From NCBI GenBank assembly GCA_038087875.1, contig CM075995.1, positions 10,294,001-10,358,000 of the forward strand: DNA of 64,000 nt, given 5' to 3'. Under the pieces are notes generated by a model that saw only the letters and a list, made by a program, of their open reading frames with translations, searched no databases and had not been told where the DNA came from. This document shows, piece by piece, positions 844-63,481 of this stretch. A program made the translations under genes and the position numbers. Numbering within the stretch: position 1 is the first letter of the stretch; every line of letters begins with the position of its first letter. The DNA is from Malacoraja senta. Lineage: Eukaryota.

Positions 844-1123
844 GAAACGTGGCGTCCGGAGGACGGCCGACCCAGTCCAGCACGTATGCAGGGGCAGGTG
901 CTCATCGAGCCAATGACGGTAACAGCGACATCCACTTCAGGAATGGATCATGCTCGCGCACCAGGAAATCCACAAACCCTTGGTGGAGAATCGATCTATT
1001 AGAGATCTACAATGTGTCAGATGTAAAAATCACAAACAGAGCAGACTGCTGTTCAGACCGGCTTCAAGGAGCCCAGATCCATATCGGGAACTCACTGGAG
1101 AATGATGGCAATTCCAACCGACT
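844..1123 (+). CDS. F-type lectin exon A1
   Basis: cag|GAAACGTG...CGACT|gtaagt; 280 bp; NVASGGRPTQSST...GSCSRT...PWWRIDL...NRADCCSDRL. Confidence 0.9.
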
Positions 1124-1683
1124 GTAAGTATTCAGAAGCAAACGCCGACTCTATTCAGCTGCGGGATCGTGTTCTGCAAGTTCCACTGGCACTGTTGCAA
1201 TGGTAACATGAGTGGGAAACAGAGAAAAGCTGCAGGTTAAGACTTATCTCACTGCAGAAATAGCTAAAAACGATCACGGTTGTTCCAGATGCGAGAGAAA
1301 GTGATACAGAGCCGCAGACCAAGTCTGTAGCGGTGGGTTCAATAAAAGGAGACGAATATACATGTAATTTAAGTTAATTCAATAAAAATAATATTGAACA
1401 ATCGGAATGCATGTGCAATTTTCAGGTAACCAACGCCCATGTGTGAGGGAACATGGAGTTCCTTCCGAGACAAGGTGACCATTGTATCCGGACCCTTTCC
1501 TGTTCCTAGTTAATTGTTTGGGAGGTAACGGCAAGGATGCCCGGGATAGACGCGGGGGCTCAGCACATGCCATGAAAGTGTCACCACTTCACCCGCACAG
1601 GCCTTCGATAACGTTTGACACGAGATCCCGACCGCAGTGATCGAGATATTTCAGGCTCACCTTTAAATCTTCATCTATTTCAG

Positions 1684-1844
1684 CTGTGTAACTGTTGCTG
1701 CGGTTAATTTGACGACGTTTCTCTTTAAATGTGATGGATTTGTCGGTCGATATGTGAACATCATCATCCCCGGCCACAACAAAATCTTGACCCTGTGTGA
1801 GGTTGAGATCTTTGGTACAGAAGTCCCGTACTTCATTGGAAAAG
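1684..1844 (+). CDS. F-type lectin exon B1
   Basis: tttcag|CTGT...AAAG|gtaggc; 161 bp; CVTVAAVNLTTFLFKCDGFVGRYVNIIIPGHNKILTLCEVEIFG. Confidence 0.9.
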
Positions 1845-2516
1845 GTAGGCGGAACTTTCCGCTGAGGCTCTGGTTGTGCACAGCCCCCTAGCATAGTTGG
1901 GAAGATTCTCCCACTGATAAGGTATGCGAAATAAAGATCTTCATGAGGCCGTGTACCGTCATTCTGCCCTTCTCCACTTTTGGACTCTCGCATTGTCCAA
2001 ATATAATCCTATCTAAGAAAGAAATACTTGAGACACTTGATGCACGCGCCCTGAGTCATTCCGATCTGGACTTAATGCTGATAAACACCAACCACGCACC
2101 GACGAATTACCCGCCTATTGAAAAACACTTGAAGAGCATCTCTTTGCTCTCAGACAACCGAATCGTCCGTCCTTGTTCTATTGCAAACCCGATATTTTAA
2201 ACTGCCTCAGTGCGTTTCTTGGACATATTTCCTGTAACTGTAAAGCTACAACAATGTAATAGCATATCATGCAATCTATGTTTTTTTTCTACTTTACTTG
2301 TTGCTCTTGTGTACGGCTTCATTCCATAGATGTACAGTATGTTATGAGTGTATGGTACAAACAAGGGTTATCATTGCATCTTGCGTCACTTGACCATACA
2401 AGAGCATCACGATTATCAATGAAATACACTGCTCGTACAAATCTTGATAGAAGGCCTACATCTATCGGCATTAAATATCTCCCTTGCGGCTCATTGAGGT
2501 GTTTCCCACTCACCAG

Positions 2517-2796
2517 AAAACCTGGCGTTCGGTGCACGGCCAACCCAGTCCAGCACGTATCGAAGGGCAGTTGCAGAGCGAGCCAATGACGGTAACAGGG
2601 ACGGCGACTTCATGCATGGTTCATGCGCGCGCACCATGAAATCTAAGAACCCTTGGTGGAGAGTCGATCTAAAGGCAAGATACAACGTGTCAGATGTAAG
2701 AATCACCAACAGAGCAGACTGCTGCTGGAAGCGGCTCAAAGGAGCCGAGATCCGCATCGGGACTTCGCTGGCGAACGATGGCAATTCCAACAGACT
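2517..2796 (+). CDS. F-type lectin exon A2
   Basis: ccag|AAAACCTG...AGACT|gtaagt; NLAFGARPTQSSTYRRAVAERANDGN...GSCARTMK...NRADCCWKRL. Confidence 0.9.
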
Positions 2797-5149
2797 GTAA
2801 GTATTCAGGGACAAACGCTGACTCTATTCACCTGCGTTGTCTTGTTCTGTAAGTTCCACTGTTGCTGTTGCAGTGATAACATGAGTTTCGAGCTAATAAC
2901 AAACACTCCAAATAACAATCCAACAGGTTCATTGGCATATAGTAAAGTTACACTGCATGTTGTCACCACTGTGACTACATCCCGACTAACTGACTAGTGT
3001 CTGAAAGCGTTAGTAATATATGGTGACTGTAAGGTAAAACCAGAACTGGATTATAGATCCGAGAGGTGTAACATATGTGTGTTAGTATTAGGTAGAGCAG
3101 ATCTACATATTTCCTCTTAAGAAAATAACGTAACTACGAATACATATGTGAATATAACTAATCAAGTTGAACTTGCGTCTAGTAAAATCAGCACTGGAGC
3201 AGGTTAAGCATAGTCCCCGTATCTAAGGGTAGGTTTGCAAATGCGACCCGCGCGCATCCTTCACCAGTGAGAACTGTGAGACCGGGGGTTGATGGAGCAT
3301 CGGAGATCCGTGAAACGGGTGAGGGGAGAGTGGAGGGCGGGACACCGACTGTGGTGGGGAGAAGGCAAGATACATGCTGGGCACCGCAAACGGACGCTGG
3401 ACCGGGGAACAGAGAGTACCAGTCATACGGTGACACAGCCCAGGAACATCTGGATGCGGTTCATAGGTTGCGATTCATTCACTGCCAAAAGGTGTTGACG
3501 GGTACGCCGGAAATTCCCTCCATTAGAATCGACCATGTAGGAACGTGGTTCTGGTGGAGGGCTGCGGATTGTAACAAGGCGTCCATGTTGTTTGTCAGTT
3601 TGAAGCCTTACAGCTTGACCGCTTGCCAGCGGCTCGAGTGGCCTGCTCGTTTGGTCGTACGAGAGATTCTGGATCTTGCGCTTATGCTGACGCTGTGCTT
3701 GAATTACTGATGGCTTGAAAACCTGTGGCTGTAGTAGTTGCTTGGGTACGGGCAGCGTGGTAAAGGTCTGCCTTGATATGAGCCGTTGGGCAGGAGACCC
3801 TAGCACTGGGTCGCGGGCAATGTTTCTTAAGTTGAGCAAGTCCAGGTAAACAACAGATTTTGCCAAGTGTGATATTTCTATTACTTGTTTGGCACTCCGG
3901 ACTGCCCGCCCGGCCAGCCCGTTCGATTGAGAGCATCTGGGACTGCTGGTAATGTGACGAAAGTCCCATCGTTGGGTCAAATTCTTGAAGCACTGGCTGG
4001 TGAACTGGCTTCCGTTGTCAGACAGGAGTTTCACGGGTGCCCCGTGACTTGAAAAGTGTCGCGCTAGTTTTTGAACCACCACTGCTGAAATGGGGCTGGG
4101 AAGCAGATCGATCTCAAGCCAGCCAGAGTACGTGTCGTCCAGAACCAGGTATTGTTCACCACGCCATTCGAAAATGTCTGTTGCCAGTGTGGACCATGGT
4201 AAGACAGGGACTGGGTGAAGTAGAAGCGGCTGCTAGGGTTGGTGGGGCACTAGGCTACTGCAGATCGCGCAGGCTTCCACCTTCTCCCGTATACGCTCAG
4301 TGATTCCGGGACAGAAAGAACATGCTTGGCTCGAAGGATGGGTGCCTCCGTGCCGGGATGTTCCCTGTGGACAGAGTCGAAATATTTGTCTCGTAAATGA
4401 GTTGCAATGCCCGTCTTGTGTCCCTTGACAATCATGCAGTCCTGGAAGTTCGGGAGAATGGCAACAGATACATTGTGCTGTTTATCCGGCCAGCCCTGCC
4501 GGATAATCGACGACAGGGACTGTGGGGTGTCATCGGCTGCTGTCTGGGCACCCAATTCGTCCAGGCACTCTGTGGGAAGGTAAGACTCCATCATCACAAT
4601 GTAGACATCGACAACAATGGCACAAGGGTGTCCTGCGAACAGCTGTTCCATCGTGCGCTGAAATACTTTACTGGCGGATGCCAAAGGGCATTCGGAGAAA
4701 CTTCTAGCGACCAAAAGGTGTGCCAAATGTGGTTGGTTCAGACGATTTGTGTTCTAACGGGATTTGCCAGAATGAAGTTTTGGCATGTAGTACAGAGAAA
4801 ACAATAGCTTTGCCCAGGAGTGCTACTACCTCTTCTATTGTGCGTATTGGATAGTGCGGGCGCTTGGTCGCAGTATTCAGATATCTGGAGTTGATACAGA
4901 TTCGTATTTCGTCTGTTTTTCTTGGGGGCCGTGTCGTTGACTGGAGCGATGACACCTAAGGATTCCATTATTTGAATTTGTTTTGTACGCAGTCACGCAT
5001 GGCATGCGGATTTTTTTGAGGGGCGCGAACAACGGGCATTATGTCAGGGTCGTTTACAATAGAGTACTTAAGGGGTAGTTTGCCAAGTTTGTTGTCAAAG
5101 AGTTCCTTTTACTGAGCAAAAATCTGTTCGGTGGTATCTGGGGCAGGGG

Positions 5150-6527
5150 AAACATAGAAAACATAGAAACATAGAAAATAGGTGCAGGAGTAGGCCATTC
5201 GGCCCTTCGAGCCTGCACCGCCATTCAATATGATCATGGCTGATCATCCAACTCAGTATCCTGTCCCTGCCTTCTCTCCATACCCCCTGATCCCTTTAGC
5301 CACAAGGACCACATCTAACTCCCTCTTAAATATAGACAATGTACTGGCCTCAACTACCTTCTGTGGCAGAGAATTGCAGAGATTCACCACTCTCTGTGTG
5401 AAAAATGTTTTTCTCATCTCGGTCCTAAAAGATTTCCCCTTTATCCTTAAACTGTGACCCCTTGTCCTGGACTTCCCCAACATCGGGAACAATCTTCCTG
5501 CATCTAGCCTGTCCAACCACTTAAGAATTTTGTAAGTTTCTAGAAGATTCCCCCTCAATCTTCTAAATTCTAGCGAGTGCAAGCCGAGTCTATCCAGTCT
5601 TTCTTCATATGAAAGTCCTGACATCCCAGGAATCAGTCTGGTGAACCTTCTCTGTACTCCCTCTATGGCAAGAATGTCTTTCCTCAGATTTGGAGACCAC
5701 AACTGTACGCAATACCCCAGGTGTTGTCTCACCAAGACCCTGTACAACTGCAGTAGAACCTCCCTGCTCCCATACTCAAATCCTTTTGCTATGAATGCAA
5801 ACATACCATTCGCTTTCTTCACTGCATGCTGCACCTGCATGCCTACTTTCAATGACTGGTGTACCATGACACCCAGACCTCGTTGCATCTCCCCTTTTCC
5901 TAATCGGCCACCATTCAGATAATAGTCTACTTTCCCGTTCTTGCCACCAAAGTGGATAACCTCACATTTATCCACATTATACTGCATCTGCCATGCATAT
6001 GCCCACTTACCCAACCTATCCAAGTCACCTTGCAGCCTCCTAGCAGCTTCCTCACATCTAACATTGTCCCCCAGCTTCGTGTCATCCACAAATTTGGAGA
6101 TGTTGCATTCAATTCCCTCGTCCAAATCATTAATATATATTGTAAATAGCTGGGGTCCCAGCACTGAGCCTTGCGGTATCCCACTAGTCACTGCCTGCCA
6201 TTCCGAAAAGGACCCGTTTACTCCTACTCCTACTCCTACTCCTTGCTTCCTGTTTGCCAGCCAGTTCTCTATCCACATCAATACTGAACCCCCAATACCG
6301 TGTGCTTTAAATTTGTATACTAATCTCTTATGTGGGACCTTGTCGAAAGCCTTCTGGAAGTCCAGATATAACACATCCACTGGTTCTCCCTTATCCACTC
6401 TACTAGTTACGTCCTCGAAAATTTCTATATGATTCTGTCAGGCATGATTTGCCTTTCGCAAATCTATGCTGACTTTGTCCAATGATTTCACCACTTTCCA
6501 AATGTGCTGCTATCCCATCTTTAATAA
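5150..6527 (-). mobile_element. 5'-truncated CR1 LINE, (CTATGTTT)n-tailed family, nested in Gypsy pol
   Basis: ORF 5253-6398 with [27 protein letters not shown] and the CR1 C-terminus; (AAACATAG)n tail on + strand at ~5150. Confidence 0.9.
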
Positions 6528-7456
6528 GTTGGTGCATCTCTTCTGCTAAGCTTACCAATCCCAGATCCTGATAGACATCAATACAGGCAGGGCTGTTACC
6601 TTTCCTGGGACAATGAAAACGTTCAGCTTGTGCACATATGTCGCTAGATGGAACTGCAGGTCAACCCTGCCAACTAGGTGAACCTCTCCCCCTCCAAATG
6701 AAATTAACAAGGCTTTTGTGTTTACAAACGTTTCAGGATTCTTGACCCTGGAAAACTCAGCCAGAGACATAACATTACAGCGAGACCCAGTGTCGAACTT
6801 TGTCACAGTAGTAGTGTTGTTGATTTGGAATGTGACTGGGATCACGTAGTTTAAATGAAATCTCTGATAGAGAATGTATGTTTAGGCTGGAACTGTCAGG
6901 TTCCGACAAATTCCCACAAGTATACGGCACAGCTTGAGCTGCATCGGGCAGGCCGTGGGAACCATCTTGCTGGAGCAGATTTACCTGCTGTCTGGTTTCT
7001 ATACGATTTCTGCACGCCAGCACCGAACTTCGTTTACAGTAGTAGCAGACTTTCCCGTCGGTTGGGCATTGCTCGCGGACAGCTGAGTGTGAACCACCAC
7101 AATTATTACATTGGAAAAGAACCCCGCTGGGCTGTCTCTCTTCTGGTGGCAGGCGTTGAGCACGATAGAACGGGTTCGCAACACGCTGAGTGCGGACCCG
7201 GCCCTGCGAGGCGGGTATGAGAGTCGGTACCTTCGGCAATGCGGCAGACATTTTCTGCCCCGATGAGAGTTAGATCAGCATCCTGTAGAAGTACATTTTT
7301 CACTTTCTCATTTAAAATGCCACTTACCAATCTTTCGCGGACAAGCTCGTCGCACAGGTTTCCAAAACGACACTGGCTTGCAATGTGTTTTATGGTACTT
7401 ATGTATGCATCGACAGGATCACCAGGGAGCATTTTTGGGATAGAATTTGTATCGTT

Positions 7457-10596: not shown

Positions 10597-10757
10597 CTGT
10601 GCAACCGTCAACTTAGGTCACTTGACGACATTTATCGTTAATTGTGGTGGATTTGTTGGTCAATATGTGAACATCATCATCCCAGGGTACAATAAAAGGT
10701 TGACCCTATGCGAGGTTGAGATCTTTGGTTCAGAACTTCCGTCCTTACTTGGAACAG
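10597..10757 (+). CDS. F-type lectin exon B2
   Basis: tttcag|CTGTGCA...ACAG|gtaggc; CATVNLGHLTTFIVNCGGFVGQYVNIIIPGYNKRLTLCEVEIFG. Confidence 0.88.
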
Positions 10758-12172: not shown

Positions 12173-12452
12173 AAAACGTGGCGTTGGGAGTACCGGCAGC
12201 GCAGTCCAGCACCTATCGGTGGGCAGGTGCGGAGCGAGCCAATGACGGGAACAGCGACAGCGACTTCAGGCATGGTTCATGCGCTCGCACCAGGAAATCC
12301 ATGAACCCCTGGTGGAGAGTTGATCTAAAGAAAAGCTACAACGTGTCAGTTGTAAGCATCACTAACAGAGCAGATTGCTGCTCGGATTGGTTACAAGAAG
12401 CGGAGATCCGCATCGGGAACTCGCTGGAGAACGATGGCAATTTCAACAGACT
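12173..12452 (+). CDS. F-type lectin exon A3
   Basis: caacag|AAAACGTG...AGACT|gtaagt; NVALGVPAAQSSTYRWAGAERANDGN...NRADCCSDWL. Confidence 0.9.
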
Positions 12453-13153: not shown

Positions 13154-13314
13154 CTGTGGAACCGTGGATTCAGTTTCTGGGACAACATTGACATTAAATT
13201 GTGCTGGATTTGTCGGTCGATATGTGAACATTATCATCCCAGGCCAGGATAAAATTTTGACTCTGTGCGAGGTTGAGATCATTGGTAGAGAATTTCAGTC
13301 CTCACTTGGAAAAG
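13154..13314 (+). CDS. F-type lectin exon B3
   Basis: tttcag|CTGTGGA...AAAG|gtaggc; CGTVDSVSGTTLTLNCAGFVGRYVNIIIPGQDKILTLCEVEIIG. Confidence 0.9.
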
Positions 13315-16050: not shown

Positions 16051-16330
16051 AAAATCTGGCGTCCGGAGCACCGCCGACCCAGTCCAGCACGCATCGAAGG
16101 GCAGTTGCTGAAGGAGCCAACGACGGTAACAGTGACAGCAACTTCAGGCATGGCTCATGCGCGCGCACCCGTAAATCTAACAACCCTTGGTGGAGAGTGG
16201 ATCTAAAGGAAAGCTACAACGTGTCAGATGTAAGAATCACCAACAGAGCAGACTGCTGCAGGGACCGGCTCAAAGGAGCCGAGATCCGCATCGGGGACTC
16301 GCTGGAGAACGATGGCAACTCCAACAGACT
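16051..16330 (+). CDS. F-type lectin exon A4 (its frame is absent from the ORF track)
   Basis: caacag|AAAATCTG...AGACT|gtaagt; NLASGAPPTQSSTHRRAVAEGANDGN...GSCARTRK...NRADCCRDRL. Confidence 0.9.
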
Positions 16331-17043: not shown

Positions 17044-17204
17044 CTGTGAGACAGTAGATTCGGTTTCTGAGACGACATTGACCTTCAATTGTGATGGATT
17101 TATCGGTCGATATGTGAACATCATCATCCCAGGCCAGAATAAAACTTTGACCCTGTGCGAGGTTGAGGTCTTTGGTTCAAAACTCTCGGACTTACATGGA
17201 AAAG
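17044..17204 (+). CDS. F-type lectin exon B4
   Basis: tttcag|CTGTGAG...AAAG|gtaggt; CETVDSVSETTLTFNCDGFIGRYVNIIIPGQNKTLTLCEVEVFG. Confidence 0.9.
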
Positions 17205-19223: not shown

Positions 19224-19503
19224 AAAACGTGGCACACGGAGCACCGCCGACCCAGTCCAGCACGGATCACGGGGCACCTGCTGAGCTAGCGAATGACGGG
19301 AACAACGACAGCGACTTCAGGCATGGTTCATGCTCGCGCACTAGGAAATCCAAGGATCCTTGGTGGAGAATCGATCTAAATGAAAGCTACAACGTGTCAA
19401 ATGTAAGAATCACCAACAGAGCAGACTGCTGCTCGGACCAGCTCAAAGGAGCGGAGATCCGCATCGGGAATTCGCTGGAAAACGATGGCAATTCCAACAG
19501 ACT
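19224..19503 (+). CDS. F-type lectin exon A5 (unit 1)
   Basis: caatag|AAAACGTG...AGACT|gtaagt; NVAHGAPPTQSSTDHGAPAELANDGN...NRADCCSDQL. Confidence 0.9.
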
Positions 19504-21301: not shown

Positions 21302-21735
21302 CTGTGGAACCGTTGATTCAGTTGCTTTGACAACACTTACATTCAATTGTGATGGACTTGTTGGTCGATATGTGAACATCTTCATCCCGGGCCAGGATAA
21401 AATCTTGACTCTTTGCGAGGTTGAGATCTTTGCTTCAAAATATCCTTCTACCCATATCCCGTTAGAGCAGGACATGAAACCCACGTCTGGACCTGAAATG
21501 GAAAAGCAAACTCACGTCCATATCCCGTCCGTAAAGGGAACGAAACTCCCGCCAACCTCTGGAAACAATCTCCCGCACATAACTGGAACGAAAATGCCGT
21601 CCGTGAAGGAAACGGTGCCCCAGTCCCCAAAGGGAACGAAAAAACCGTCCATACCTGGAACGAATATCCCGCCAACAACCGGAACGAACGTTTCGTTCGT
21701 AACTGGAACAAATCTGCGATCTGGAACTGTAACAG
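21302..21735 (+). CDS. Extended exon B5: lectin C-terminal half plus Pro/Thr-rich linker
   Basis: tttcag|CTGTGGA...ACAG|gtaggc; 434 bp, i.e. 161 bp plus 273 bp in frame. Confidence 0.88.
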
Positions 21736-24487: not shown

Positions 24488-24767
24488 AAAACGTGGCACA
24501 CGGAGCACCGCCGACCCAGTCCAGCACGGATCACGGGGCACCTGCTGAGCTAGCGAATGACGGGAACAACGACAGCGACTTCAGGCATGGTTCATGCTCG
24601 CGCACTAGGAAATCCAAGGATCCTTGGTGGAGAATCGATCTAAATGAAAGCTACAACGTGTCAAATGTAAGAATCACCAACAGAGCAGACTGCTGCTCGG
24701 ACCAGCTCAAAGGAGCGGAGATCCGCATCGGGAATTCGCTGGAAAACGATGGCAATTCCAACAGACT
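24488..24767 (+). CDS. F-type lectin exon A6 (unit 2)
   Basis: Same protein as A5; AG/GT intact. Confidence 0.88.
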
Positions 24768-26565: not shown

Positions 26566-26999
26566 CTGTGGAACCGTTGATTCAGTTGCTTTGACAACAC
26601 TTACATTCAATTGTGATGGACTTGTTGGTCGATATGTGAACATCTTCATCCCGGGCCAGGATAAAATCTTGACTCTTTGCGAGGTTGAGATCTTTGCTTC
26701 AAAATATCCTTCTACCCATATCCCGTTAGAGCAGGACATGAAACCCACGTCTGGACCTGAAATGGAAAAGCAAACTCACGTCCATATCCCGTCCGTAAAG
26801 GGAACGAAACTCCCGCCAACCTCTGGAAACAATCTCCCGCACATAACTGGAACGAAAATGCCGTCCGTGAAGGAAACGGTGCCCCAGTCCCCAAAGGGAA
26901 CGAAAAAACCGTCCATACCTGGAACGAATATCCCGCCAACAACCGGAACGAACGTTTCGTTCGTAACTGGAACAAATCTGCGATCTGGAACTGTAACAG
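26566..26999 (+). CDS. Extended exon B6 (unit 2)
   Basis: Same protein as B5; AG/GT intact. Confidence 0.88.
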
Positions 27000-29751: not shown

Positions 29752-30031
29752 AAAACGTGGCACACGGAGCACCGCCGACCCAGTCCAGCACGGATCACGG
29801 GGCACCTGCTGAGCTAGCGAATGACGGGAACAACGACAGCGACTTCAGGCATGGTTCATGCTCGCGCACTAGGAAATCCAAGGATCCTTGGTGGAGAATC
29901 GATCTAAATGAAAGCTACAACGTGTCAAATGTAAGAATCACCAACAGAGCAGACTGCTGCTCGGACCAGCTCAAAGGAGCGGAGATCCGCATCGGGAATT
30001 CGCTGGAAAACGATGGCAATTCCAACAGACT
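29752..30031 (+). CDS. F-type lectin exon A7 (unit 3)
   Basis: Same protein as A5 and A6; AG/GT intact. Confidence 0.88.
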
Positions 30032-31823: not shown

Positions 31824-32257
31824 CTGTGGAACCGTTGATTCAGTTGCTTTGACAACACTTACATTCAATTGTGATGGACTTGTTGGTCGATATGTGAACA
31901 TCTTCATCCCGGGCCAGGATAAAATCTTGACCCTTTGCGAGGTTGAGATCTTTGCTTCAAAATTTCCTTCTATCCATATCCCGTTAGAGCAGGACATGAA
32001 ACCCACGTCCGGACCAGAAATGGAAAAGCAAACTCACGTCCATATCCCGTCCGTAAAGGGAACGAAATTCCCGCCAACCTCTGGAAACAATCTCCCGCAC
32101 ATAACTGGAACGAAAATGCCGTCCGTGAAGGAAACGGTGCCCCAGTCCCCAAAGGGAACGAAAAAACCGTCCGTACCTGGAACGAATATCCCGCCAACAA
32201 CCGGAACGAACGTTTCGTTCGTAACTGGAACAAATCTGCGATCTGGAACTGTAACAG
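31824..32257 (+). CDS. Extended exon B7 (unit 3)
   Basis: 434 bp; variant KFPSIH, GTKFPP, PSVP. Confidence 0.88.
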
Positions 32258-35006: not shown

Positions 35007-35286
35007 AAAACGTGGCACACGGAGCACCGCCGACCCAGTCCAGCACGGATCACGGGGCACCTGCTGAGCTAGCTAATGACGGGAACAACGACAGCGACTT
35101 CAGTCATGGTTCATGCGCGCGCACTAGGAAATCCAAGGATCCTTGGTGGAGAATCGATCTAAATGAAAGCTACAACGTGTCAAATGTAAGAATCACCAAC
35201 AGAGCAGACTGCTGCTCGGACCAGCTCAAAGGAGCCGAGATCCGCATCGGGAACTCGCTGGAAAACGATGGCAATTCCAACAGACT
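35007..35286 (+). CDS. F-type lectin exon A8 (unit 4)
   Basis: 280 bp; DFSHGSCART variant; AG/GT intact. Confidence 0.88.
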
Positions 35287-37085: not shown

Positions 37086-37519
37086 CTGCGGAACCGTTGA
37101 TTCAGTTGCTTTGACAACACTTACATTCAATTGTGATGGACTTGTTGGTCGATATGTGAACATCTTCATCCCGGGCCAGGATAAAATCTTGACTCTTTGC
37201 GAGGTTGAGATCTTTGCTTCAAAATATCCTTCTACCCATATCCCGTTAGAGCAGGACATGAAACCCACGTCCGGACCTGAAATGGAAAAGCAAACTCACG
37301 TCCATATCCCGTCCGTAAAGGGAACGAAACTCCCGCCAACCTCTGGAAACAATCTCCCGCACATAACTGGAACGAAAATGCCGTCCGTGAAGGAAACGGT
37401 GCCCCAGTCCCCAAAGGGAACGAAAAAACCGTCCATACCTGGAACGAATATCCCGCCAACAACCGGAACGAACGTTTCGTTCGTAACTGGAACAAATCTG
37501 CGATCTGGAACTGTAACAG
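37086..37519 (+). CDS. Extended exon B8 (unit 4)
   Basis: 434 bp; same protein as B5. Confidence 0.88.
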
Positions 37520-40285: not shown

Positions 40286-40565
40286 AAAACGTGGCACACG
40301 GAGCACCGTCGACCCAGTCCAGCACGGATCACGGGGCACCTGCTGAGCTAGCTAATGACGGGAACAACGACAGCGACTTCAGGCATGGTTCATGCGCGCG
40401 CACTAGGAAATCCAAGGATCCTTGGTGGAGAATCGATCTAAATGAAAGCTACAACGTGTCAAATGTAAGAATCACCAACAGAGCAGACTGCTGCTCGGAC
40501 CAGCTCAAAGGAGCGGAGATCCGCATCGGGAATTCGCTGGAAAACGATGGCAATTCCAACAGACT
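40286..40565 (+). CDS. F-type lectin exon A9 (unit 5)
   Basis: 280 bp; GAPSTQSST and GSCART variant. Confidence 0.88.
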
Positions 40566-42736: not shown

Positions 42737-43170
42737 CTGTGGAACCGTTGATTCAGTTGCTTTGACAACACTTACATTCAATTGTGATGGACTTGTTGGT
42801 CGATATGTGAACATCTTCATCCCGGGCCAGGATAAAATATTGACCCTTTGCGAGGTTGAGATCTTTGCTTCAAAATTTCCTTCTATCCATATCCCGTTAG
42901 AGCAGGACATGAAACCCACGTCCGGACCTGAAATGGAAAAGCAAACTCACGTCCATATCCCGTCCGTAAACGGAACGAAACTCCCGCCAACCTCTGGAAA
43001 AAATCTCCCGCACATAACTGGAACGAAAATGCCGTCCGTGAAGGAAACGGTGCCCCAGTCCCCAAAGGGAACGAAAAAACCGTCCATACCTGGAACGAAT
43101 ATCCCGCCAACAACCGGAACGAACGTTTCGTTCGTAACTGGAACAAATCTGCGATCTGGAACTTTAACAG
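42737..43170 (+). CDS. Extended exon B9 (unit 5)
   Basis: 434 bp; KFPSIH variant; donor ACAG|gtaggc at 43170. Confidence 0.88.
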
Positions 43171-48591: not shown

Positions 48592-48871
48592 AAAACGTGG
48601 CGTTGGGAGCAAGTGCGTCCCAATCCAGCACGGATGGAGGGGCAGCTTGTGAGCGAGCCAATGACGGAAACACCGACAGCGACTTCAGGCATGGTTCATG
48701 CGCGCGCACCAGGAAATCCAAGGACCCTTGGTGGAGAGTCGATCTAATGGAAAGCTACAACGTGTCAGATGTAAGAATCACCAACAGAGCAGACTGCTGT
48801 TCGGAACAGCTCCAAGGAGCTGAGATCCGCATCGGGGACTCGCTGGAAAACGATGGCAATTCCAACACACT
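48592..48871 (+). CDS. F-type lectin exon A10
   Basis: cacag|AAAACGTG...ACACT|gtaagt; NVALGASASQSSTDGGAACERANDGN...NRADCCSEQL. Confidence 0.9.
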
Positions 48872-49490
48872 GTAAGTTCTCATAAGCAATCGCCGACTCA
48901 AGTAACAAGCGTTGTCTTTTTCTGCAACCTTCGCTGTTACTGGAGCAATGATAATATCAGTGGGAAAAAGAGAGATGCTTCAGGATAAAATTAAAATTAT
49001 TCTCCGCTGATCCAGATGCGGGAGCAAATGATACAGAGCGTAATCAACTTACCAAATTACATGAGCCTTTTGCGTACCTCTATAGCGGTGGGGTCAAAGA
49101 AAGGACAAGTATAAATCTGTAATTTAACTTAATTCAAGTTATGTAATAAGGAACAATCGGATTGCTGTGGCAATAGACAGGTAACCAATGACGATGAGTG
49201 AGGATATTGCAGCATCTACTCAGTCAATGCGGCCTATGTGTGGGAAGAAACTGCAGGTCGTGGTTGAACGCGAAGATACGCACAAAAATATGGAATACAT
49301 TGTGCGGTCAGACCGCATCATTGAAGGAAAGCAATAGGTGACGTTCCGGGTCGAATCCCTTCCTCAGACTGAATACAGTCTGAAGAATGTCTCGATCCGA
49401 AACGTCAGCTATTCCTTGTCTCCAGAGAACAGCGACAGCGTCCTCAGGCATAGTTCATGCGCGCGCACCAGTAAATCTAAGAACCCTTGG

Positions 49491-50435
49491 CTGGATAATG
49501 AAGTAGATTTTCAAAGTCTGCAGAGAGATTTAGGCCATTTGGAAGAGTGGGCTGAAAGATGGCAGATGGAGTTTAATGCTGACAAATGTGAGGTGCTACA
49601 TCTCGGCAGCACAAATCAAAATAGGACGTACCCGGTAAATGGTAGCGAATTGAGGAATGCAGTTGAACAGAGGGATCTAGGAATAACTGTGCATAGTTCC
49701 CTGAAGGTGGAATCTCATGTAGATAGGGTGGTAAAGAAAGCTTTTGGTGTGCTGGCCTTTATAAATCAGAGCATTGAATATAGAAGTTGGGATGTAATGT
49801 TAAAATTGTACAAGGCATTGGTGAGGCCAATTCTGGAGTATGGAGTACAATTTTGGTCGCCTAATTATAGGAAGGATGTCAACAAAATAGAGAGAGTACA
49901 GAGGAGATTTACTAGAATGTTGCCTGGGTTTCAGCAACTAAGTTACAGAGAAAGGTTGAACAAGTTAGGTCTTTATTCTTTGGAGCGCAGAAGGTTAAGA
50001 GGGGACTTGATAGAGGTCTTTAAAATTATGAGCGAGTTCAACAGAGTGGACGTGTATAAGCTTTTCCCATTGGGAGTAGGGAAGATTCAAGCAAGGGGAC
50101 ATGACTTGAGAATTAAGGGACAGAAATTTAGGGGGAACATTAGGGGGGACTTCTTTAATCAGAGAGTGGTAGCTGTGTGGAATGAGCTTTCAGTGGAAGT
50201 GGTGGAGGCAGGTTCGATGTTATCCTTTAAAAATATATTGGATGGGTATATGGACGGGAAAGGAATGGAGGGTTATGGTCTAAGTGCAGGTAGATGGGAC
50301 TAGGGGGAACTATTTATTTTTAATTAAAAAAAATATATATATTTTTAAAATTTAAAAAAAATGTTCGGCACGGACTTGAAGGGCCGAGATGGCCTGTTTC
50401 CGTGCTGTTATGGTTATATAGTTATATGGTTATAT
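49491..50435 (+). mobile_element. 5'-truncated CR1 inside the pseudo-exon
   Basis: DNEVDFQSLQRDL...GYGLSAGRWD; (TTATATGG)n-like tail at ~50408-50435. Confidence 0.9.
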
Positions 50436-50540
50436 GAGGGTGGATCTAAAGGAAAGCAACAACATGTCAGATGTAAGAATCACCAACAGAGCAGACTACT
50501 GCGCTGCCCACCTCAGAGGTGCCGAGACTCGTTGGAGAAC

Positions 50541-51128
50541 CATATAACCATATAACCATATACCAATTACAGCACGGAAACAAGCCATCTCGTCCCTTCT
50601 AGTCCGTGTCAAACACGTATTATCCCCTAGTCCCATATACCTGCGCTCAGACCATAACCCTCCATTCCTTTCCCGTCCATATAACTATCCAATTTATTTT
50701 TAAATGATAAAAACGAACCTGCCTCCACCACCTTCACTGGAAGCTCATTCCACACAGCCACCACTCTCTGAGTAAAGAAGTTCCCCCTCATGTTACCCCT
50801 AAACTTCTGCCCCTTAATTCTCAAGTCATGTCCCCTTGTTTGAATCTTCCCTACTCTCAGTCGGAAAAGCTTATCCACGTCAACTCTGTCTATCCCTCTG
50901 ATCATTTTAAAGACCTCTATTAAGTCCCCCCTTAACCTTCTGCGCTCCAAAGAATAAAGCCCTAACTTGTTCAACCTTTCTCTGTAACTTAGTTGCTGAA
51001 ACCCAGGCAACATTCTAGTAAATCTCCTCTGTACTCTCTCTATTTTATTGACATCCTTCCTATAATTAGGCGACCAAAATTGTACACCATACTCCAGAAT
51101 TGGCCTCACCAATGCCTTGTACAATTTT
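50541..51128 (-). mobile_element. 5'-truncated CR1 inside the pseudo-exon, opposite orientation
   Basis: ORF 50627-51184 is a CR1 C-terminus; (CCATATAA)n tail on + strand. Confidence 0.9.
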
Positions 51129-54100
51129 TGTACGATGGTAACTCCAACAGACTGTGAGTATTCAGAAGCGATCGCCGACTCCATTCACATGCGATGTCGT
51201 CCTCTACAAATTTCAATATTACTGTTGCAATGATAAAATGATCAAATTGCATAAAAAAAACTGTGCTGCGCTCAACCAGATGCTAGGAAAAATGATACAA
51301 AGCCGTTGTCCAATTGGCCAGTGTCATGAGCTGCTGACGTACTTCCATCGCGATGTGTTCAATAAAAGCAGATGCATAAATAAGACATTTAAGTTAATTC
51401 AAGTTATGAAATGATGAACAAACGGATTGCAGTAGTAATGTTCAGCTAACCAATGCCTATGAGTGATGATCATGCAGGCTCAAGCTACTCAGGGCTACCT
51501 GGGTGTCGGAACGAAATGCAGGTGCATGTTTAATCCGAAGATAGACATACAAACTGGAGTAACTCAGCGGGTCGGACAGTAACTCTGGAGAAAAGGAATA
51601 GCAAACGTTTCATAGATATACAGATACTTAAACAATAGGTGCAGGAGTAGGCCATTCGGCCTTTCGAGCCAGCACCGCCATTCATGTGATCATGGCTGAT
51701 CATCCACAATCACTACCCCGCTCCTGCCTTCTCCCGATACCCCTTGAATCCGCTGGCCCTTGGCGCTCTATCTAACACTCTTTTAAATGCATCCAGTGAA
51801 TCGGCCTCCACTGCCTCCCGAGACAGAGAATTTCACAAATTCACAACTCTCTGGGTGAAAAAGTGTTTCATCATCTCAGTACTGAATAGCCTACCCCTTA
51901 TACTTAAACCGTGGCCCCTGGTTCTGGACTTCCACAACACCGGGAACGTGTTTCCCGCATCTAGCTTGACCAATCCCTCAATAATTTTATATGTCCCTAT
52001 AAGTTCCTCTCTCATCCTTCTGAATTCCAGTGAATATAAGCCCAGTCGCTCAATTCTTTCAGCATCTCGTCATCCCGTGAATTAACCTCGTAAACCTACT
52101 CTGCACTCCCTCAATAGCAATAATGTTCTTCCTCAAATTAGGAGACCAAAACTGCACATAATGCTCCAAATGTTGTCTCACCAGGGCCCTGTACAACCGC
52201 AGAAGGCCCGCTTTGCTCCTGTACTCAACTCCTCTCGTTATGAAGGCAAATATGCAATGAGCTTTCTACACTGCTTGTTGTACCTGCGTGCTTACTTTCA
52301 GTGACTGGTGTACAAGGACACCCAGGTCACGTTGTACTCCTCTTTTCCTAACATGACACCATTCAGATAATAATCTCCTTCCCGTTCTTCCCACACATAT
52401 ATCCACATTATACTGCATCTGCCACGCATCTGTCCACTCACCCAACCTGTCCAAATCACGCTACATCCGCATAGCATCCTCTTCACAGTTCACACTGCCA
52501 CCCAGCTTTGTGTCATCTGCAAATTTGCTAATGTTACATAATTCCTTTATCTTAATCATTAATGTATATTGTAAATAGCTGCGGTCCAAGCACCGAGCCT
52601 TGCTGCACCCCACTAGTCACAGCCTGCCATTCAGAAAGGGGCCCGTTAATTCGTACACTTTGTTTCATGTCTACCAACCAATTTTCTATCCATGTTAATA
52701 ACATACCCCCAATATCATGTGCTCTAATTTTACCCACTAATATTCTGTGTGAGACCTTAGCAAAGGCTTTTTGAAAATCCAGGTACACTACATCCACTGG
52801 CTCTCCCTTGTCCATTTTACTTGTTACATCCTCAAAAAATTCCAGAAGATTTGTCAAGCATGATTTCCCCTTCGTAATTCCATGCTGACTTGAACCGATC
52901 CAGTTACTGCTATCTAAATGCGCCGCTTTATTACATCTTTGATAATCGACTCCAGCACCTTACCCACAACTGATGTCAATCTGACTGGTCTAAAATTGCC
53001 TGCGTTCTCTCTCCCTCATTTCTACAAAAGTGGAATAACCCTACAATCCAAAGGAACCGATCCAGAATCTATAGAACATTGGAAAATGATCACCAATGCT
53101 TCCACGGTTTCGAGAGCCATTTCCGTGAGTACCCTGGGATGCAGACCATCAGGCCCCGGGATTTATCAGCTTTCTGACCCATCAGTCTACCCAACACCAT
53201 TTCCTGACTAGTTAGAATTTTCTTCAATTCCTCCATCACTTTAGCCATTTGTCCCCTAGTACACCCGGGAGATAGTTTGTGTCTTCCTTCGTGAGGACAG
53301 AACCAAGCTACCTGTTCAACTCGTTTGCCATTTCCTTGTTCCTTGTTCACCTGTTCTGTCCTCAAGGGACCCACATTTGTCTTAATAATAAATAATAATA
53401 ATAAATAATAAATACTTAACTAATTTTAACTAATTAACTCTTAACTAATGTTCTCCTCTTCATATACTTAAAGAAGCTTATACTATCCTCTTTTATATTC
53501 TTGGCTAGCTTTCCTTGTTACTTCATCTTTTCTCCCCGTATTGCCTTTTTAGTTACCTTCTGTTGTTCTTGAAACGTTGCCCAATCTCCTGGCTTCCCGC
53601 TCTCTTTGCTATGTTATACGTCTTCTCTTTTATTTTTATACTGTCCTTGACTTCCGTTGTCGCCTCTTACTCTATTGAACACGTGATTCAATTGCTCAAC
53701 TTTAGGCAGAAGCAGGAAAGTTGTTCGGTAGCAGTATTCACGCCTGAGCAGCCCTATTTAGGATCCACTCTGCTCACCCTGAACTGGGAAGGCGCTAGAA
53801 AAGAAATAGTCTGCTTCGACTCCTCCTGTCTGGAAAGCCGCATCCAGAGGGATCACCATCATGCGGTCGAAAATCATCAAGAAGTGAAACTATGAAACTC
53901 GGAACTTGGAATATACGAACTCTGATGGACAACCCAAACTCAGACCGACCCGACAGAAGAACCGCCTTTGTTGTTCGGGAACTCCGAAAATTCAGCTTTG
54001 ACATCGTTGCTCTGAGTGAGAACCGCAGAGCTGGAGAAGGGCAACTAAAGGAAGATCAAGGTCAATACACCTTTTTCTGGAAAGGTCTTGATCTTGGACA

Positions 54101-55720: not shown

Positions 55721-56720
55721 AAGTAAGTAAGTAAGTATATTGGCCAAGTATTCACATACAAGTAATTTGCCTTGGTGCTCCGTCCACAAGTAACAACATG
55801 ACATACAGTGACAGTTACGAATGATTCCGAAAACACTAAACACTAATAATAATAATAATAATAAGACATTAATGATAAAACACCATTGATCAAGAATGTG
55901 AACCAACAAAATACAAGATTAAAGAGAGGCTACAGATTTTTGGCTGTTGAGTAGAGCAACTACTCGTGGATAAAAACTGTTTTTATGTCTGGCTATGGCA
56001 GCTTTGACAATCCGGAGTCGCCTTCCAGAGGGAAGTGATTCAAAGAGTTTGTGGCCAAGGTGAGAGGGGTCAGAGATGATCTTGCCCGCTCGCTTCCTGG
56101 CCCTTTCAGTGTACAGTTCATCAATGGAGGTAAGGTTGCAGACAATAATCTTCTCTGCTGATCGGATGATACGCTGCAGCATCCAGGCGTCGTGCATGGT
56201 GGCTAAACCAAACCAGACCATGATGGAGAAGCTGAGAACAGACTCTACGATGGCCGTGTAGAATTGGACCATCATTGCCTGTGGCAAAATGTGCTTCCTC
56301 AGCTGCCGCAGGAAGTACATCCTCTGTTGTACCTTTTTGACTGTGGAGTCGATGGTAGCCCCCCACTTAAGGTCCTTGGAGATGATGGTTCCCCGGAATT
56401 TAAAAGACTCCACAGATGTGACTGTGGTATTGTTGACGGTGAGTGGGGTGAGGGGAGGGGGAGCTCTCCTAAAGTCTACAATCAATTCCACTCTCTTAAG
56501 AGCATTGGGCTCTATATTGTTGCTACGGCACCAGGACGCCAGCTGTGACACTTCCTGTATGTAGGCAGATTACTCTCAATCCTGGATCAGTCCAATCAGG
56601 GTTTTGTCATCCGCAAACCTGAGAAGCTTGACAGATGTGTCTGTGGAGGTGCAGTCGTTGGTGTAGAGAGAGTAGAGGAGAGAAGAGAGTACGCAGCTTT
56701 GCGGTACTCCTACGCTGAGC
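55721..56720 (-). mobile_element. Rex1/Babar-like LINE 3' fragment nested in the RTE
   Basis: ORF 55919-56551 WC..N...ELIVDFRR...QRMYFLRQLRK...LPSGRR; (AAGT)n tail on + strand. Confidence 0.8.
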
Positions 56721-59700: not shown

Positions 59701-60310
59701 GATGTATATCCCTAAATATATAGAGTTCCCAGCTCTGATCTTCTTGCAGCCATGACTGTAATTCCCACAACATCGTACTCACCAATTTTTAGCTGAGCCG
59801 CAAGCTCATCCACTTTATTTTTCATACTTCGTGCACTCATATATAACAAATTTAACTCGGTAATCACCTCCCCTCTCACTTCGGTTCCTCTTTCACTCTT
59901 ATCCCTTCATGAACTTTCCGTCCCATTAATTGGGTTTTCTTTCGTAACTTTTCCTGTACTCTCTTCCCCTATAACTGCATCCTAATTCTTCAATTTGCAA
60001 CCCCTCCTTCTCACTATTTAGTTTAGTGTAATCAGTCTGAAGAAGGTGCTCGAGGAAACGTCACATATTCATTTTCTCCCCAGACGCTGTCTGACCAGCT
60101 ACGCTACCTACGTATCCGGAAGCTCTACTGTTTCTAGCCATCTGTTAGGAACACGAGCAAGTGGATACGATGCCGGCAATTGCCGTGGTAGCCCCACATA
60201 TCCACGCAACGTGTCACCAGTGCACCGGCACAGGCCTGTGATAATATTTGACACACTTCCTCATACGCATGATGGAGACAGTGGAATCTCACCTTTAAAT
60301 CCTCATCTTT

Positions 60311-62366
60311 GTCTATGGTTGAAGGTTTAAACGATGGGTTATTAACTATTGGTATTGAGAGAGATAGGTTTCTTAATTTTAGATTCTGTTTTATTTGTTT
60401 CCATGTTCTAATTGTGCTATTTATAATTGGGTTTTTATTATAATTTTTATTATTCAAATTTATTGGAGAGAGAATAATCGCTCCTATATTACTCGGGGAA
60501 CAGTCCCCTTTTTCCATTATAATCCAGTCCGCCTGCTGGGCAGAATTGTCCAGCAGGTGAATCATATTTTTAATATTTACTGCCCAATTATAATACATAA
60601 AGTTAGGGAGCGCGAGACCCCCCAACTCTTTTCGTTTATTAAGGTGTGCTCTTTGTATTCTATGGGATTTATAATCCCATATAAAATTTGTAATGTCTGA
60701 GTCCAATTTTTTGAAAAACTTTTTGGGGAGATATATGGGTATTGATTGAAATAGGTATAGGATTTGTGGTAAGAAAATCATTTTTATAGCATTTATTCTG
60801 CCTATTAAGGACATCGGAAGCGTTTTCCAGAATTTAATCATATTATTTAATTTCTTAAGTAAGGGATTATAATTGGCTTTAAACATATCCTGGTAATTTC
60901 AAGTAATTTCAATTCCCAAATATTTGAATTTTTCTGTAGCTATTTTAAAGGGGAATTTCCTGAGGTGTGTTGAGTCTTTTGGTTTTATCGACATAATTTC
61001 ACTTTTGTTCCAGTTTATTCTATATCCTGAGAAGGATCCAAAGTCCTCAATTAAATTTAATATATTTGGTATATTAATTTGTGGTTTTGTGATGTACAAT
61101 AGTACATCATCCTTCAACCATAGACAAATCATTTATACAATGGGAAATAATGGGAATCAAAACGCTCGAAGATCTGTATGAATTGGGAAAATTACTATCA
61201 TTTCAACAACTACAACTGAAATATAATTTGAAAAATAATCAATATTTTAAATATCTACAAATTCGTGATTACCTGAAAAAATACACAAAAGACTATCATA
61301 ATATGCCTTCCGACTTACTAGATGATGCAATGAAGACAAAGGCGGAATCAGCTAATCTAATATCGTACTTATATAATATCATTTTACACATAGAAATACC
61401 CACAACAGATGGAATTAGAAGAGACTGGGAACAAGAATTAGCTATAAAAATTTCAAAAGAGAGCTGGGATAACCATTTACTACAGGTGCATAAATGTTCG
61501 ATCAACATACGACATACGCTCATCCAATTCAAAACATTACATAGACTATATTATTCAAAAACTAAATTAAATAAAATCTTTCCTAATGTTTCACCAATCT
61601 GTGATAAATGTCTATGTCAAGAAGCTACCATAGCGCATTCTTTTGTTTTTTGTACAAAAATCCAAAAATTCTGGTATGAAATATTTGATATTTTCTCAAA
61701 ATTAATTAAAATAAAACTGGTACCAAAACCAGAATGGATCATTTTTGGAATATCGGAAGGTATCCCTGAATTAAACGTGTATCAGAAGAACTTATTCAAT
61801 TACGGGCTAATAATTGGAAAAAAGCTCATACTTAAATTCTGGAAAAATGCGCCCACACCAACAATAAAAATGTGGACATCAAATATGATGGAAACATTAC
61901 ATCTGGAAGAGATGAGATTCCTCTTAGCAGGTAAAGCGGAACAATTCCAAAAGACGTGGTCTACGTTTCTGGACCTATTACAAGCATGAGGTGCAATAGT
62001 AATTTAAAAAATAAATAGATAAAGAAATGGTATCAGGACCTGGTAATGGGAGGTAAAGCAATAAAAACAGACTTGGTTGGTGGTTCCCTTTCAGCGATTG
62101 TTCCTACTCTCTTTTTCTTTCTTTTCTAGGATCTACTTTCTTACTTTACTTCCTTCTCTAACTTCTTTTCTAAGGGGCTTTCTTTTCACAACACTCTCTT
62201 GCACTTCACGACTCTTGCGCACTTTCTTTACTTTTCTTACTTCTATCTTTCTCTTAAAGCTCAAAAAAATGAAGCGGTATAAAAAATGTATTAAGATATA
62301 AGTGTTGTGCATTACTGTAATTTACCGTACTTCTAATAAAAATAATTAAAAAAATAAAAATAAAAA
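60311..62366 (+). mobile_element. L1-clade LINE with 5' inversion, inserted just upstream of exon B10
   Basis: Inverted ORF2 piece 60311-61110 (- strand; DDVLLY, YRINWNKS, WKTLPMSLIGRINAIK); sense ORF 61150-61989; A-rich tail; TSD AAATCCTCATCTTT at 60297-60310 and ~62368-62381. Confidence 0.9.
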
Positions 62367-62386
62367 AAAATCCTCATCTTTTTCAG

Positions 62387-62547
62387 TTGTGGAATCGTTG
62401 ATTCGGTTTTCGGGACGACATTGACCTTCAATTGCGGTGGATTTGTCGGTCGATATGTGAACATCATTATCCCAGGCCCGGATAAAACATTAACCCTGTG
62501 CGAAGTTGAAATATTTGGTTCAGAACTCCCGTACTTACATGGAAAAG
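62387..62547 (+). CDS. F-type lectin exon B10
   Basis: tttcag|TTGTGGA...AAAG|gtaggc; CGIVDSVFGTTLTFNCGGFVGRYVNIIIPGPDKTLTLCEVEIFG. Confidence 0.88.
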
Positions 62548-63201
62548 GTAGGCTGAGCTTCCCGCCGAGCCTCTGGTTGTACACTGCCGCACAGCTTAGT
62601 TGAAAGTTTCTCGCACTGATGATGTCTGAGGATACCTTCCTTATTGAAGCGCAGTACCGTCTCTCCCAACCCTCTGCTCTTTGGCTTTCGTAGTTTACTC
62701 GTCAGATTTGGACCCTCGCTGTGTCCGAAAATGAAATTCCTGAGTCACTCGATGTATACGCCGTCATCCATTTCGTCTGCAGACCTTATGCTGATAAACA
62801 CCATCCTGGCATCAAAAAATCACACACCGATTGAAGCACGCGTGGAGAGTATCTCCCCGTTACATGACTACAGAACGGCCCTCCCTTGAGTTGTAGTGCA
62901 ATCTCGATATTTTAACCTGCCTCAGCGCGGTTCTCAGACTAAAGTTCTCCAGCCCTATTACCACAACACCATACACCATATTATGCAATCTATTGCTTTA
63001 TTTCTACTTTACCAGTTGCTCTTGTGTGCGGCTCATTGCACTGATGTACAGAACGTACAGTACAAAGAAGTGTTTGCACTGCATCTCGCTTCCCTTGGCC
63101 ACACAAAAGCAAGACGAATATGAATGAAATATACTGATAACCCAACCCCTGATAGAAGAAATACCTCCATCGGTATCAGTAAAGTGTTTCCCACCTAACA
63201 G

Positions 63202-63481
63202 AAAACGTGGCGTTGGGAGCAAGTCCGACCCAGTCCAGCACGGATGAAGGGGCAGGTGCTGAGCGAGCCAATGATGGGAACATCGACAGCGACTTCAGGC
63301 ATGGTTCATGCGCACGCACCAGGAAATCCAAGGACCCCTGGTGGAGAGTAGATCTAAAGGAAAGCTACAACGTGTCAGATGTAAGAATCACCAACAGAGC
63401 AGACTGCTGCTCGGACCAGCTCCAAGGAGCAGAGATCCGCATCGGGGACTCGCTGGAGTACGATGGCAATTCCAACAGACT
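63202..63481 (+). CDS. F-type lectin exon A11 (partner B exon lies beyond the window)
   Basis: taacag|AAAACGTG...AGAC T|gtaagt; NVALGASPTQSSTDEGAGAERANDGN...NRADCCSDQL. Confidence 0.9.

What the first reader, a model, noticed from the sequence alone, without database searches (positions are those of the whole stretch)
844..63481. Fucose-binding triad is rewired in every domain: His to Arg in 11 of 11, last Arg to Gln or Trp in 8 of 11
Known: the F-type motif is H-x26-R-x-D-x4-R/K (eel agglutinin CTHT...NRGDCCGER). Seen: every A exon reads GSC(S/A)RT, with Arg exactly 26 residues before the R of NRADCC. The final position is R in A1, A2 and A4, W in A3, and Q in A5-A11. The ANDGN Ca-site motif and the cysteines are kept. 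Inference: the fold is conserved but the ligand has changed. A basic RTRK patch could favour anionic glycans (sulfated or sialylated), or the domains may be non-binding structural units, giving two classes of domain in one chain.
Basis: partly seen in the sequence, partly recalled or inferred. Interest (0 to 1): 0.75.

Follow-up and report, generated by a model that had tools for sequence, protein, structure and literature searches.

The report
Skate multi-domain lectin with altered pocket
A skate gene strings together at least twelve sugar-binding-type domains whose usual fucose-gripping residues are changed in a way shared with other skates; such changes are common in this protein family, so it is a new variant whose ligand is still untested.

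Summary
All 11 A exons read R-x26-R-x-D-x4-[R,R,W,R,Q x7], and 21 exons splice into 2017 codons with no stop. But 5 of the 11 are copies of one 5.26-kb duplication (98-99.5% identical), so there are about 7 independent domain types, all from one clade.

The variant is a skate trait. Arg replaces His in 32 of 43 skate domains from three genera, against 39 of 1282 other domains. R-R-Q occurs in 19 of 43 against 1 of 1282. Loss of the His itself is common: 451 of 1261 other domains, and 43 of 247 non-skate arrays have no His at all. Birds gained Arg independently in domain 1 (15 of 16 proteins).

Fold, cysteines and calcium ligands are kept, and dN/dS is about 0.4. Two classes are supported: R-R-R domains have basic faces (+5 to +8), while R-R-Q domains are neutral (-2 to 0) with Asp in the methyl pocket. 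An anionic ligand is therefore plausible only for the R-R-R class. No ligand or expression was shown. Verdict: new variant of a known kind.

The parts
1..106 (+). B0, 3' part of a B exon; the gene begins upstream of the window
   Evidence: tblastn and blastn hits, donor GT at 107
844..1123 (+). A1 exon, triad R-R-R (codons at 957, 1038, 1059), CDR1 Tyr
1684..1844 (+). B1 exon (161 nt; Cys108/Cys124/Cys146/Glu147 equivalents)
2517..2796 (+). A2 exon, triad R-R-R, most basic face (+8)
10597..10757 (+). B2 exon
12173..12452 (+). A3 exon, triad R-R-W; the Trp is kept in the matching Amblyraja, Leucoraja and Rhinoraja domains
13154..13314 (+). B3 exon
16051..16330 (+). A4 exon, triad R-R-R
17044..17204 (+). 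B4 exon
19224..19503 (+). A5 exon, triad R-R-Q, CDR1 Asp; first of five 5.26-kb tandem units
21302..21735 (+). B5 exon, 434 nt, extended by a Pro/Thr/Ser-rich linker (40 of 96 residues P, T or S)
24488..24767 (+). A6 exon, R-R-Q (identical to A5)
26566..26999 (+). B6 exon with linker
29752..30031 (+). A7 exon, R-R-Q (identical to A5)
31824..32257 (+). B7 exon with linker
35007..35286 (+). A8 exon, R-R-Q
37086..37519 (+). B8 exon with linker
40286..40565 (+). A9 exon, R-R-Q
42737..43170 (+). B9 exon with linker
48592..48871 (+). A10 exon, R-R-Q
49428..51154 (+). Broken twelfth A exon in three pieces (49428-49490, 50431-50526, 51134-51154) split by LINE-like insertions; keeps the first Arg, last position His
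62387..62547 (+). B10 exon, next B after A10 (13.5-kb intron holding the broken copy)
63202..63481 (+). A11 exon, R-R-Q; has a donor site, so the gene continues beyond the window

Best explanation
This is an internal part of an intact, skate-specific gene for a very long extracellular chain of F-type lectin domains: 147-residue two-exon modules, at least 12 here, five followed by Pro/Thr/Ser-rich linkers. One ancestral domain carried Arg at the His52 position before the array expanded, and every copy inherited it. The last Arg was then replaced by Gln in one branch and by Trp in one domain. The calcium- and disulfide-clamped barrel is kept under purifying selection, but the His/Arg/Arg grip on the axial 4-OH of fucose cannot form as in eel agglutinin. 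Most likely the chain has two classes. R-R-R domains (Tyr/His in CDR1, basic face) remain sugar-binding with shifted, possibly anion-tolerant specificity. R-R-Q and R-R-W domains have lost canonical fucose binding; the Gln class (Asp in the methyl pocket, neutral face) acts as a spacer or weak, avidity-dependent binder. Shown: sequence, open frame, conservation, fold, charge classes. Inferred: single transcript, secretion, ligands, roles.
For: Open 2017-codon splice path with AG/GT at all 21 exons. The same domain order occurs in Rhinoraja P0001 and Amblyraja P0018+P0002. With the triad masked, the window's domains and 35 other skate domains form one clade (support 0.82). dN/dS is 0.43 for A and 0.33 for B; QSST, ANDGN and GSC have dN = 0. 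Fold match rmsd 1.4-1.7 A. Loop charge is +5, +8 and +6 for R-R-R against -2 to 0 for R-R-Q, with a canonical mean of +0.4, sd 2.8, n=588. The Trp is kept in three genera. PMC5712786 (section read) names His52, Arg79 and Arg86 as the residues that bond the 4-OH, and Leu23 as part of the methyl pocket.
Against: There are no binding data and no ligand-bound model; the folding tool returned no coordinates, and the domain folded was a Leucoraja relative, not the window's own. No signal peptide, start, stop or transcript was seen; NCBI splits the skate locus into several models. CGG to CAG and CGG to TGG are the two default CpG transitions, which fits relaxed constraint on the last Arg rather than adaptation. 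The broken copy also keeps the first Arg. The covariation of Gln with CDR1 Asp may be a single event. Tree support is modest (92 columns).
Confidence: 0.5

Rival explanations
1. All domains are non-binding structural beads. The pocket has decayed under relaxed constraint, and the chain works as a stiff, disulfide- and calcium-stabilised scaffold (mucus, skin or egg-capsule matrix), or binds protein rather than sugar.
For: Gln and Trp are the CpG-decay products of CGG. The last position also shows K, E, H and L in other skate domains. Most other cartilaginous-fish domains also lack the His (18 of 21). The mucin-like linkers and the recent five-fold unit duplication suggest selection for length.
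Against: Arg79, Phe45, Cys82-Cys83 and the first Arg are invariant in the window, and Arg79 is kept in 39 of 39 skate domains. CDR1 shows dN above dS (0.43 vs 0.18; 8 codons, non-independent pairs), as expected of a recognition loop. Arg arose again and was kept in bird domain 1.
Confidence: 0.22
2. The whole array switched to anionic glycans (sulfated or sialylated) through the added Arg and the RTRK loop.
For: The loop holding the first triad residue has charge +3 in 10 of 10 complete domains; about 1% of 588 canonical domains reach +3 and 6.5% reach +2. Arg also replaces the Tyr46 equivalent in 8 of 10 complete domains.
Against: R-R-Q domains have net loop charge -2 to 0, net domain charge -4 to -8, and Asp in CDR1. 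One of the three charges is the triad Arg itself.
Confidence: 0.12
3. Fucose binding is retained: Arg can donate the same hydrogen bond as His52, and multivalency offsets weaker sites.
For: Arg79, Asp81, Cys82-Cys83 and Phe45 are kept. In birds, His and Arg alternate at orthologous domain 1 (pigeon H-R-R, 13 others R-R-R), which suggests the two can be exchanged. Fucosylated glycans are reported on shark skin (passage in PMC10707392).
Against: Arg is much longer than His in a shallow cleft (inference). Loss of the last Arg removes two of the hydrogen-bond donors. From recall only (paper not held): mutagenesis by Khairnar et al. 2019 found few tolerated replacements at these positions.
Confidence: 0.13
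4. The array is an assembly artefact or a decaying pseudogene.
For: Five near-identical 5.26-kb units, one broken exon copy, and no transcript evidence.
Against: The units differ by 17-63 bases in about 3 kb. There are no stops in 2017 codons, dN/dS is below 1, and the same triads occur in three other skate genomes.
Confidence: 0.03

Closest known systems
Eel agglutinin AAA (PDB 1k12) and striped bass MsaFBP32 (PDB 3cqo)
   Same: Fold (rmsd 1.7 and 1.4 A for a Leucoraja R-R-Q domain), Arg79, Asp81, vicinal Cys82-Cys83, two other disulfides, calcium ligands, 26-residue spacing.
   Different: His52 is Arg in all domains and Arg86 is Gln or Trp in most; the Leu23 position is Asp in the Gln class; at least 12 domains with PTS linkers instead of 1 or 2.
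Atypical F-type domains in print: Drosophila CG9095/furrowed, oyster bindins, ranaspumin-4, bryohealin (PMC5712786, PMC12221842; Khairnar et al. 2019 seen only as a reference entry)
   Same: Triad residues replaced on an intact fold; tandem domains of one chain differ; altered ligands shown for ranaspumin-4 (galactose) and bryohealin (GlcNAc/GalNAc) according to the 2025 review.
   Different: The R-R-Q / R-R-W / R-R-R combination and a skate array are not described in the passages I read or found by my searches.
Uncharacterised skate NCBI models (Rhinoraja LOC144607515; Amblyraja LOC116984017, LOC116983989, LOC116984036, LOC116984049; Leucoraja LOC129706200, LOC129706218)
   Same: 71-86% identity to A2, same triads and matching domain order; these are the orthologous locus.
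   Different: They are annotated as several separate models; the five-copy linker unit is not seen in these models.
Bird five-domain F-type protein (e.g. Pluvialis P0058, Ciconia P0213)
   Same: Domain 1 has Arg at the His position in 15 of 16 proteins (13 R-R-R); position-specific non-canonical triads are conserved along the chain.
   Different: It nests among bird and turtle domains in the tree, so the Arg is convergent; it has a signal-peptide-like start and keeps canonical domains.

Membership tests
F-type lectin domain (fold family) | F-type jelly-roll fold | tested here: met
   A exons hit 3cqo (E 1e-47) and 1k12 (E 1.6e-23). The model of Leucoraja R-R-Q protein P0034 has 133 residues with pLDDT of 90 or more; its top Foldseek hits are 3cqo and 1k12. 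The window's own spliced domain was not folded.
F-type lectin domain (fold family) | Disulfide cysteines 50/146, 82/83, 108/124 | tested here: met
   All six are present in 10 of 10 complete domains.
F-type lectin domain (fold family) | Calcium motif h2DGx and ligands Asp38, Asn40, Ser49, Cys146, Glu147 | tested here: inconclusive
   Ligand residues are kept in 10 of 10 complete domains, but the second small hydrophobic residue is Asn (ANDGN), seen in 14 of 630 canonical domains. Metal binding was not tested.
Canonical fucose-binding F-type lectin | H-x26-R-x-D-x4-R/K triad | tested here: not met
   0 of 11 A exons; 1 of 43 skate domains.
Canonical fucose-binding F-type lectin | [quoted passage not shown] | tested here: inconclusive
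   Phe45 is kept in 10 of 10. The Leu23 position is Tyr/His in A1-A4 and Asp in A5-A10, but Asp also occurs there in 46 canonical domains. The Tyr46 position is mostly Arg.
Canonical fucose-binding F-type lectin | Binding of L-fucose or fucosylated glycans | not testable with these tools
   No binding assay, and no fucose ligand is offered for modelling.
Secreted tandem F-type lectins | Signal peptide and expression as one chain | tested here: inconclusive
   The gene ends lie outside the window and no genome is held. No RNA holder was listed. No read evidence was obtained.

The most novel reading that the evidence does not exclude
Arg at the His52 position marks a second, repeatedly evolved specificity class of the F-type domain (skates, birds, grouper, salmonids, coelacanth) that binds a charged glycan such as sulfated fucose or sialyl/sulfo-Lewis. 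Skates amplified it into a chain of 12 to 18 or more domains, with basic binding domains followed by neutral Gln-type domains on mucin-like spacers that recognise a different sugar through an Asp-lined pocket for a 6-OH group.
Probability: 0.18. Interest if true: 0.65.

Novelty: new variant of a known kind. Interest (0 to 1): 0.38.

Why it matters
About four in ten F-type domains in my sample lack the textbook triad, yet ligands are known for very few. The skate array offers natural near-isogenic sets (R-R-R, R-R-W and R-R-Q at about 80-90% nucleotide identity). With the convergent bird His/Arg pair, these make the question 'new ligand or dead pocket?' directly testable on glycan arrays. A new specificity would give new glycan probes and a lead on skate mucosal or reproductive biology. 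If the pocket is dead, it is one more lectin fold co-opted as a structural repeat.

Tried and rejected
Expression: no RNA holder was listed (two runs of unknown kind, one study), which is no evidence either way. No read alignment was obtained, so splicing into one transcript stays open. A protein search for transcript-derived skate relatives listed only NCBI genome models among the skate hits. No whole genome is held, so the gene ends were not seen. The Khairnar 2019 and Mahajan 2018 papers are not held (one search was a wrong DOI). No paper on a skate F-type array or the R-x26-R variant came up in ten searches, but the library lacks most subscription journals. Unseen papers and supplements (the Bishnoi survey, Khairnar 2019) may already list the variant; I opened no supplements. 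Earlier-findings look-ups were empty. Rejected: His of FRHGS as a substitute; shared ancestry of the skate and bird Arg; artefact or pseudogene. A CDR5 Asn/Asp split that matches the two classes in the window does not hold in Amblyraja P0002, so I dropped it. The first splice attempt used an exon one base short and gave stops; it was corrected. The first tree run did not finish and was redone with FastTree. No complex prediction was run.
Full report
Observation. A six-frame scan found 11 intact A exons on the + strand. With exact boundaries (280 nt, AG...GTAAG), the first triad codon is CGC (Arg) in 11 of 11, 26 residues before the Arg of NRADCC. The last position is CGG in A1, A2 and A4, TGG in A3 and CAG in A5-A11. 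Alignment to eel agglutinin (1k12, E 1.6e-23) and striped bass FBP32 (3cqo, E 1e-47) puts this Arg on His52 without gaps through the motif. Eel agglutinin has its own His five residues upstream (FYHGSCTH), so the His of FRHGS is an ordinary family residue and not a replacement. It is also Asn in A1 and variable among canonical domains.

Anatomy. Ten complete B exons and one partial B exon (B0) alternate with the A exons. B is 161 nt, or 434 nt in B5-B9, where it adds a linker in which 40 of 96 residues are Pro, Thr or Ser. Splicing all 21 complete exons in a script gives 2017 codons with no stop, in 147-residue modules. The chain is open at both window ends, so it has at least 12 domains. A5-A9 sit in five tandem units spaced 5255-5279 bp apart that differ by 17-63 bases over about 3 kb; they look like real, recent duplications, and they reduce the independent domain types to about seven. 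A twelfth A exon is broken into three pieces at 49428-51154. Introns carry reverse-transcriptase and integrase fragments (5 of 18 ORFs scanned). That all exons form one transcript is inferred from phase and from orthologous order, not shown.

Relatives. The closest proteins (71-86% identity to A2) are uncharacterised models from the skates Rhinoraja, Amblyraja and Leucoraja. Amblyraja P0018 and P0002 match B0-A1 and B1-A2-A3-A4 in order, and Rhinoraja P0001 holds nine such domains in one model.

Survey of the triad. I scored 369 proteins from four searches. Of 1451 domain hits, 126 were dropped for a gap at a triad column and 1325 were scored. Skates: 43 domains, 1 canonical, 32 with Arg first, 19 R-R-Q, 5 R-R-R, 3 R-R-W. 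Other cartilaginous fish: 21 domains, 2 canonical, 18 without His, 1 with Arg first. All others: 1261 domains, 705 canonical, 451 without His, 38 with Arg first, 20 R-R-R, 1 R-R-Q, 0 R-R-W. Of 247 non-skate proteins with three or more domains, 53 have no canonical domain and 43 have no His, but none is Arg-first throughout. The sample is biased to multi-domain vertebrate proteins, contains orthologues, is only the listed top of each search (150 of 8482; 120 of 1470), and may hide unnamed cartilaginous fish among 'others'. So rewiring of a whole array is common, while this particular combination is a skate trait.

History. A FastTree tree of 174 domains with the three triad columns masked groups the window's domains with 35 other skate domains in one clade (support 0.82; midpoint root, 92 columns). 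A3 groups with the Trp domains of all three genera, and A1, A2 and A4 with their Amblyraja counterparts, so triad identity follows position across species. Domain 1 of a five-domain bird protein has Arg first in 15 of 16 named bird proteins (13 R-R-R, 1 R-R-Q, 1 R-R-S, 1 H-R-R). It nests among bird and turtle domains (support values not printed), so the change is convergent. The residue that preceded the skate Arg is not determined, since batoid and shark relatives mostly have Gln or Ser.

Selection. Across seven domain types, dN/dS is 0.43 in A (0.129/0.299) and 0.33 in B. QSST, ANDGN and GSC have no amino-acid change, and CDR1 has dN 0.43 against dS 0.18 (simple counting, 8 codons, non-independent pairs, not a formal test). 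Against an adaptive reading, CAG and TGG are the two CpG transitions of CGG, and the broken copy also keeps the first Arg.

Structure and charge. A model of Leucoraja P0034 (R-R-Q; alignment of 46 proteins, mean pLDDT 85) matches 3cqo at 1.4 A and 1k12 at 1.7 A rmsd. No coordinates were returned, so pocket geometry was not examined. All six cysteines and the Asp38, Asn40, Ser49 and Glu147 equivalents are kept in 10 of 10 complete domains. The loop carrying the first triad residue has charge +3 in all ten (about 1% of 588 canonical domains reach +3; one charge is the triad Arg itself). Summed over the five loops, R-R-R domains score +5, +8 and +6, R-R-W +2, and R-R-Q -2 to 0, against +0.4 (sd 2.8) for canonical domains. 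At the Leu23 position, 18 of 22 skate Gln domains have Asp or Glu, against 0 of 13 Arg or Trp domains; Asp also occurs there in 46 canonical domains, and the pattern may stem from one event.

Mechanism. Best reading (0.5): an extracellular, multivalent chain with two classes. Basic R-R-R domains probably still bind sugar with shifted specificity; R-R-Q and R-R-W domains have lost the canonical fucose grip, and the Gln class serves as spacer or weak binder. Rivals: all domains non-binding (0.22), fucose binding retained (0.13), whole-array switch to anionic glycans (0.12), artefact (0.03). Every statement on ligand is inference.

Literature. PMC5712786 (Vasta 2017; abstract, two of three parts of section 4, sections 16 and 17 read) defines the triad, notes deviations in Drosophila CG9095 and oyster bindins, and mentions skate only as a taxon with the motif. 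PMC12221842 (section 8 and passages) says motif variation can change specificity and cites ranaspumin-4 and bryohealin. Khairnar et al. 2019 (IUBMB Life) on atypical motifs was seen only as a reference entry; my recollection that about a third of domains are atypical and few replacements keep activity comes from no call. PMC10707392 (passages) reports an F-type domain protein in catshark skin mucus. PMC13594953 (passages) added nothing. Ten searches found no description of this array or variant, within a library that lacks most subscription journals.

Verdict. The feature is real and conserved among skates. It has the F-type fold but is not a canonical fucose-binding lectin by the motif test. 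It is a new variant of a known kind, atypical tandem F-type domains.

Noticed in passing
window 49428-51154: Broken twelfth A exon in three pieces split by repeat insertions; no B exon lies between A10 and B10, so B10 may once have belonged to this copy.
   Followed up: partly
bird proteins P0058, P0213, P0218, P0219, P0221, P0232, P0242, P0243, P0245, P0246, P0248, P0249, P0260, P0264, P0268, P0270: A five-domain bird F-type protein has position-specific conserved atypical triads: domain 1 mostly R-R-R, domain 2 mostly H-R-S/N, domain 3 Q-R-R in 15 of 16.
   Followed up: partly
P0024, P0025, P0037-P0039, P0054, P0277, P0336, P0339, P0352, P0355, P0357: Cartilaginous fish outside skates also mostly lack the His (18 of 21 domains); short secreted shark and sawfish proteins have also lost the vicinal cysteines and carry basic residues there.
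   Followed up: partly
window 21446-21735 and its four copies: Pro/Thr/Ser/Lys-rich linker built from short GT-K/N repeats, added to the B exon; shorter forms occur in Amblyraja P0002 and Leucoraja P0035.
   Followed up: partly
all A exon 3' ends, e.g. window 1121-1127: Reading through the A donor gives Leu then a TAA stop, which is where several NCBI skate models end; this may explain the split annotation or allow truncated forms.
   Followed up: no
window A exons, codons 13-20 (CDR1): CDR1 shows dN above dS among paralogues (0.43 vs 0.18), as reported for eel isoforms and oyster bindins.
   Followed up: partly
window 3186-9550 (A2-B2 intron): Integrase-core fragment (3426-4232, minus strand) and two reverse-transcriptase fragments (5256-6437, 7596-8864) make up much of this 7.8-kb intron.
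   Followed up: no
window 55922-56569 (minus): ORF with a Pfam ALKBH8_N hit (E 4.6e-13); from my own knowledge this model often matches LINE ends, so it is probably a repeat fragment.
   Followed up: no
P0064 (Sarcophilus), P0050, P0062; P0184 (Latimeria): Other arrays rewired throughout: Q-R-Q/E/L in a marsupial-type group, A-R-R in all five domains of a coelacanth protein.
   Followed up: no
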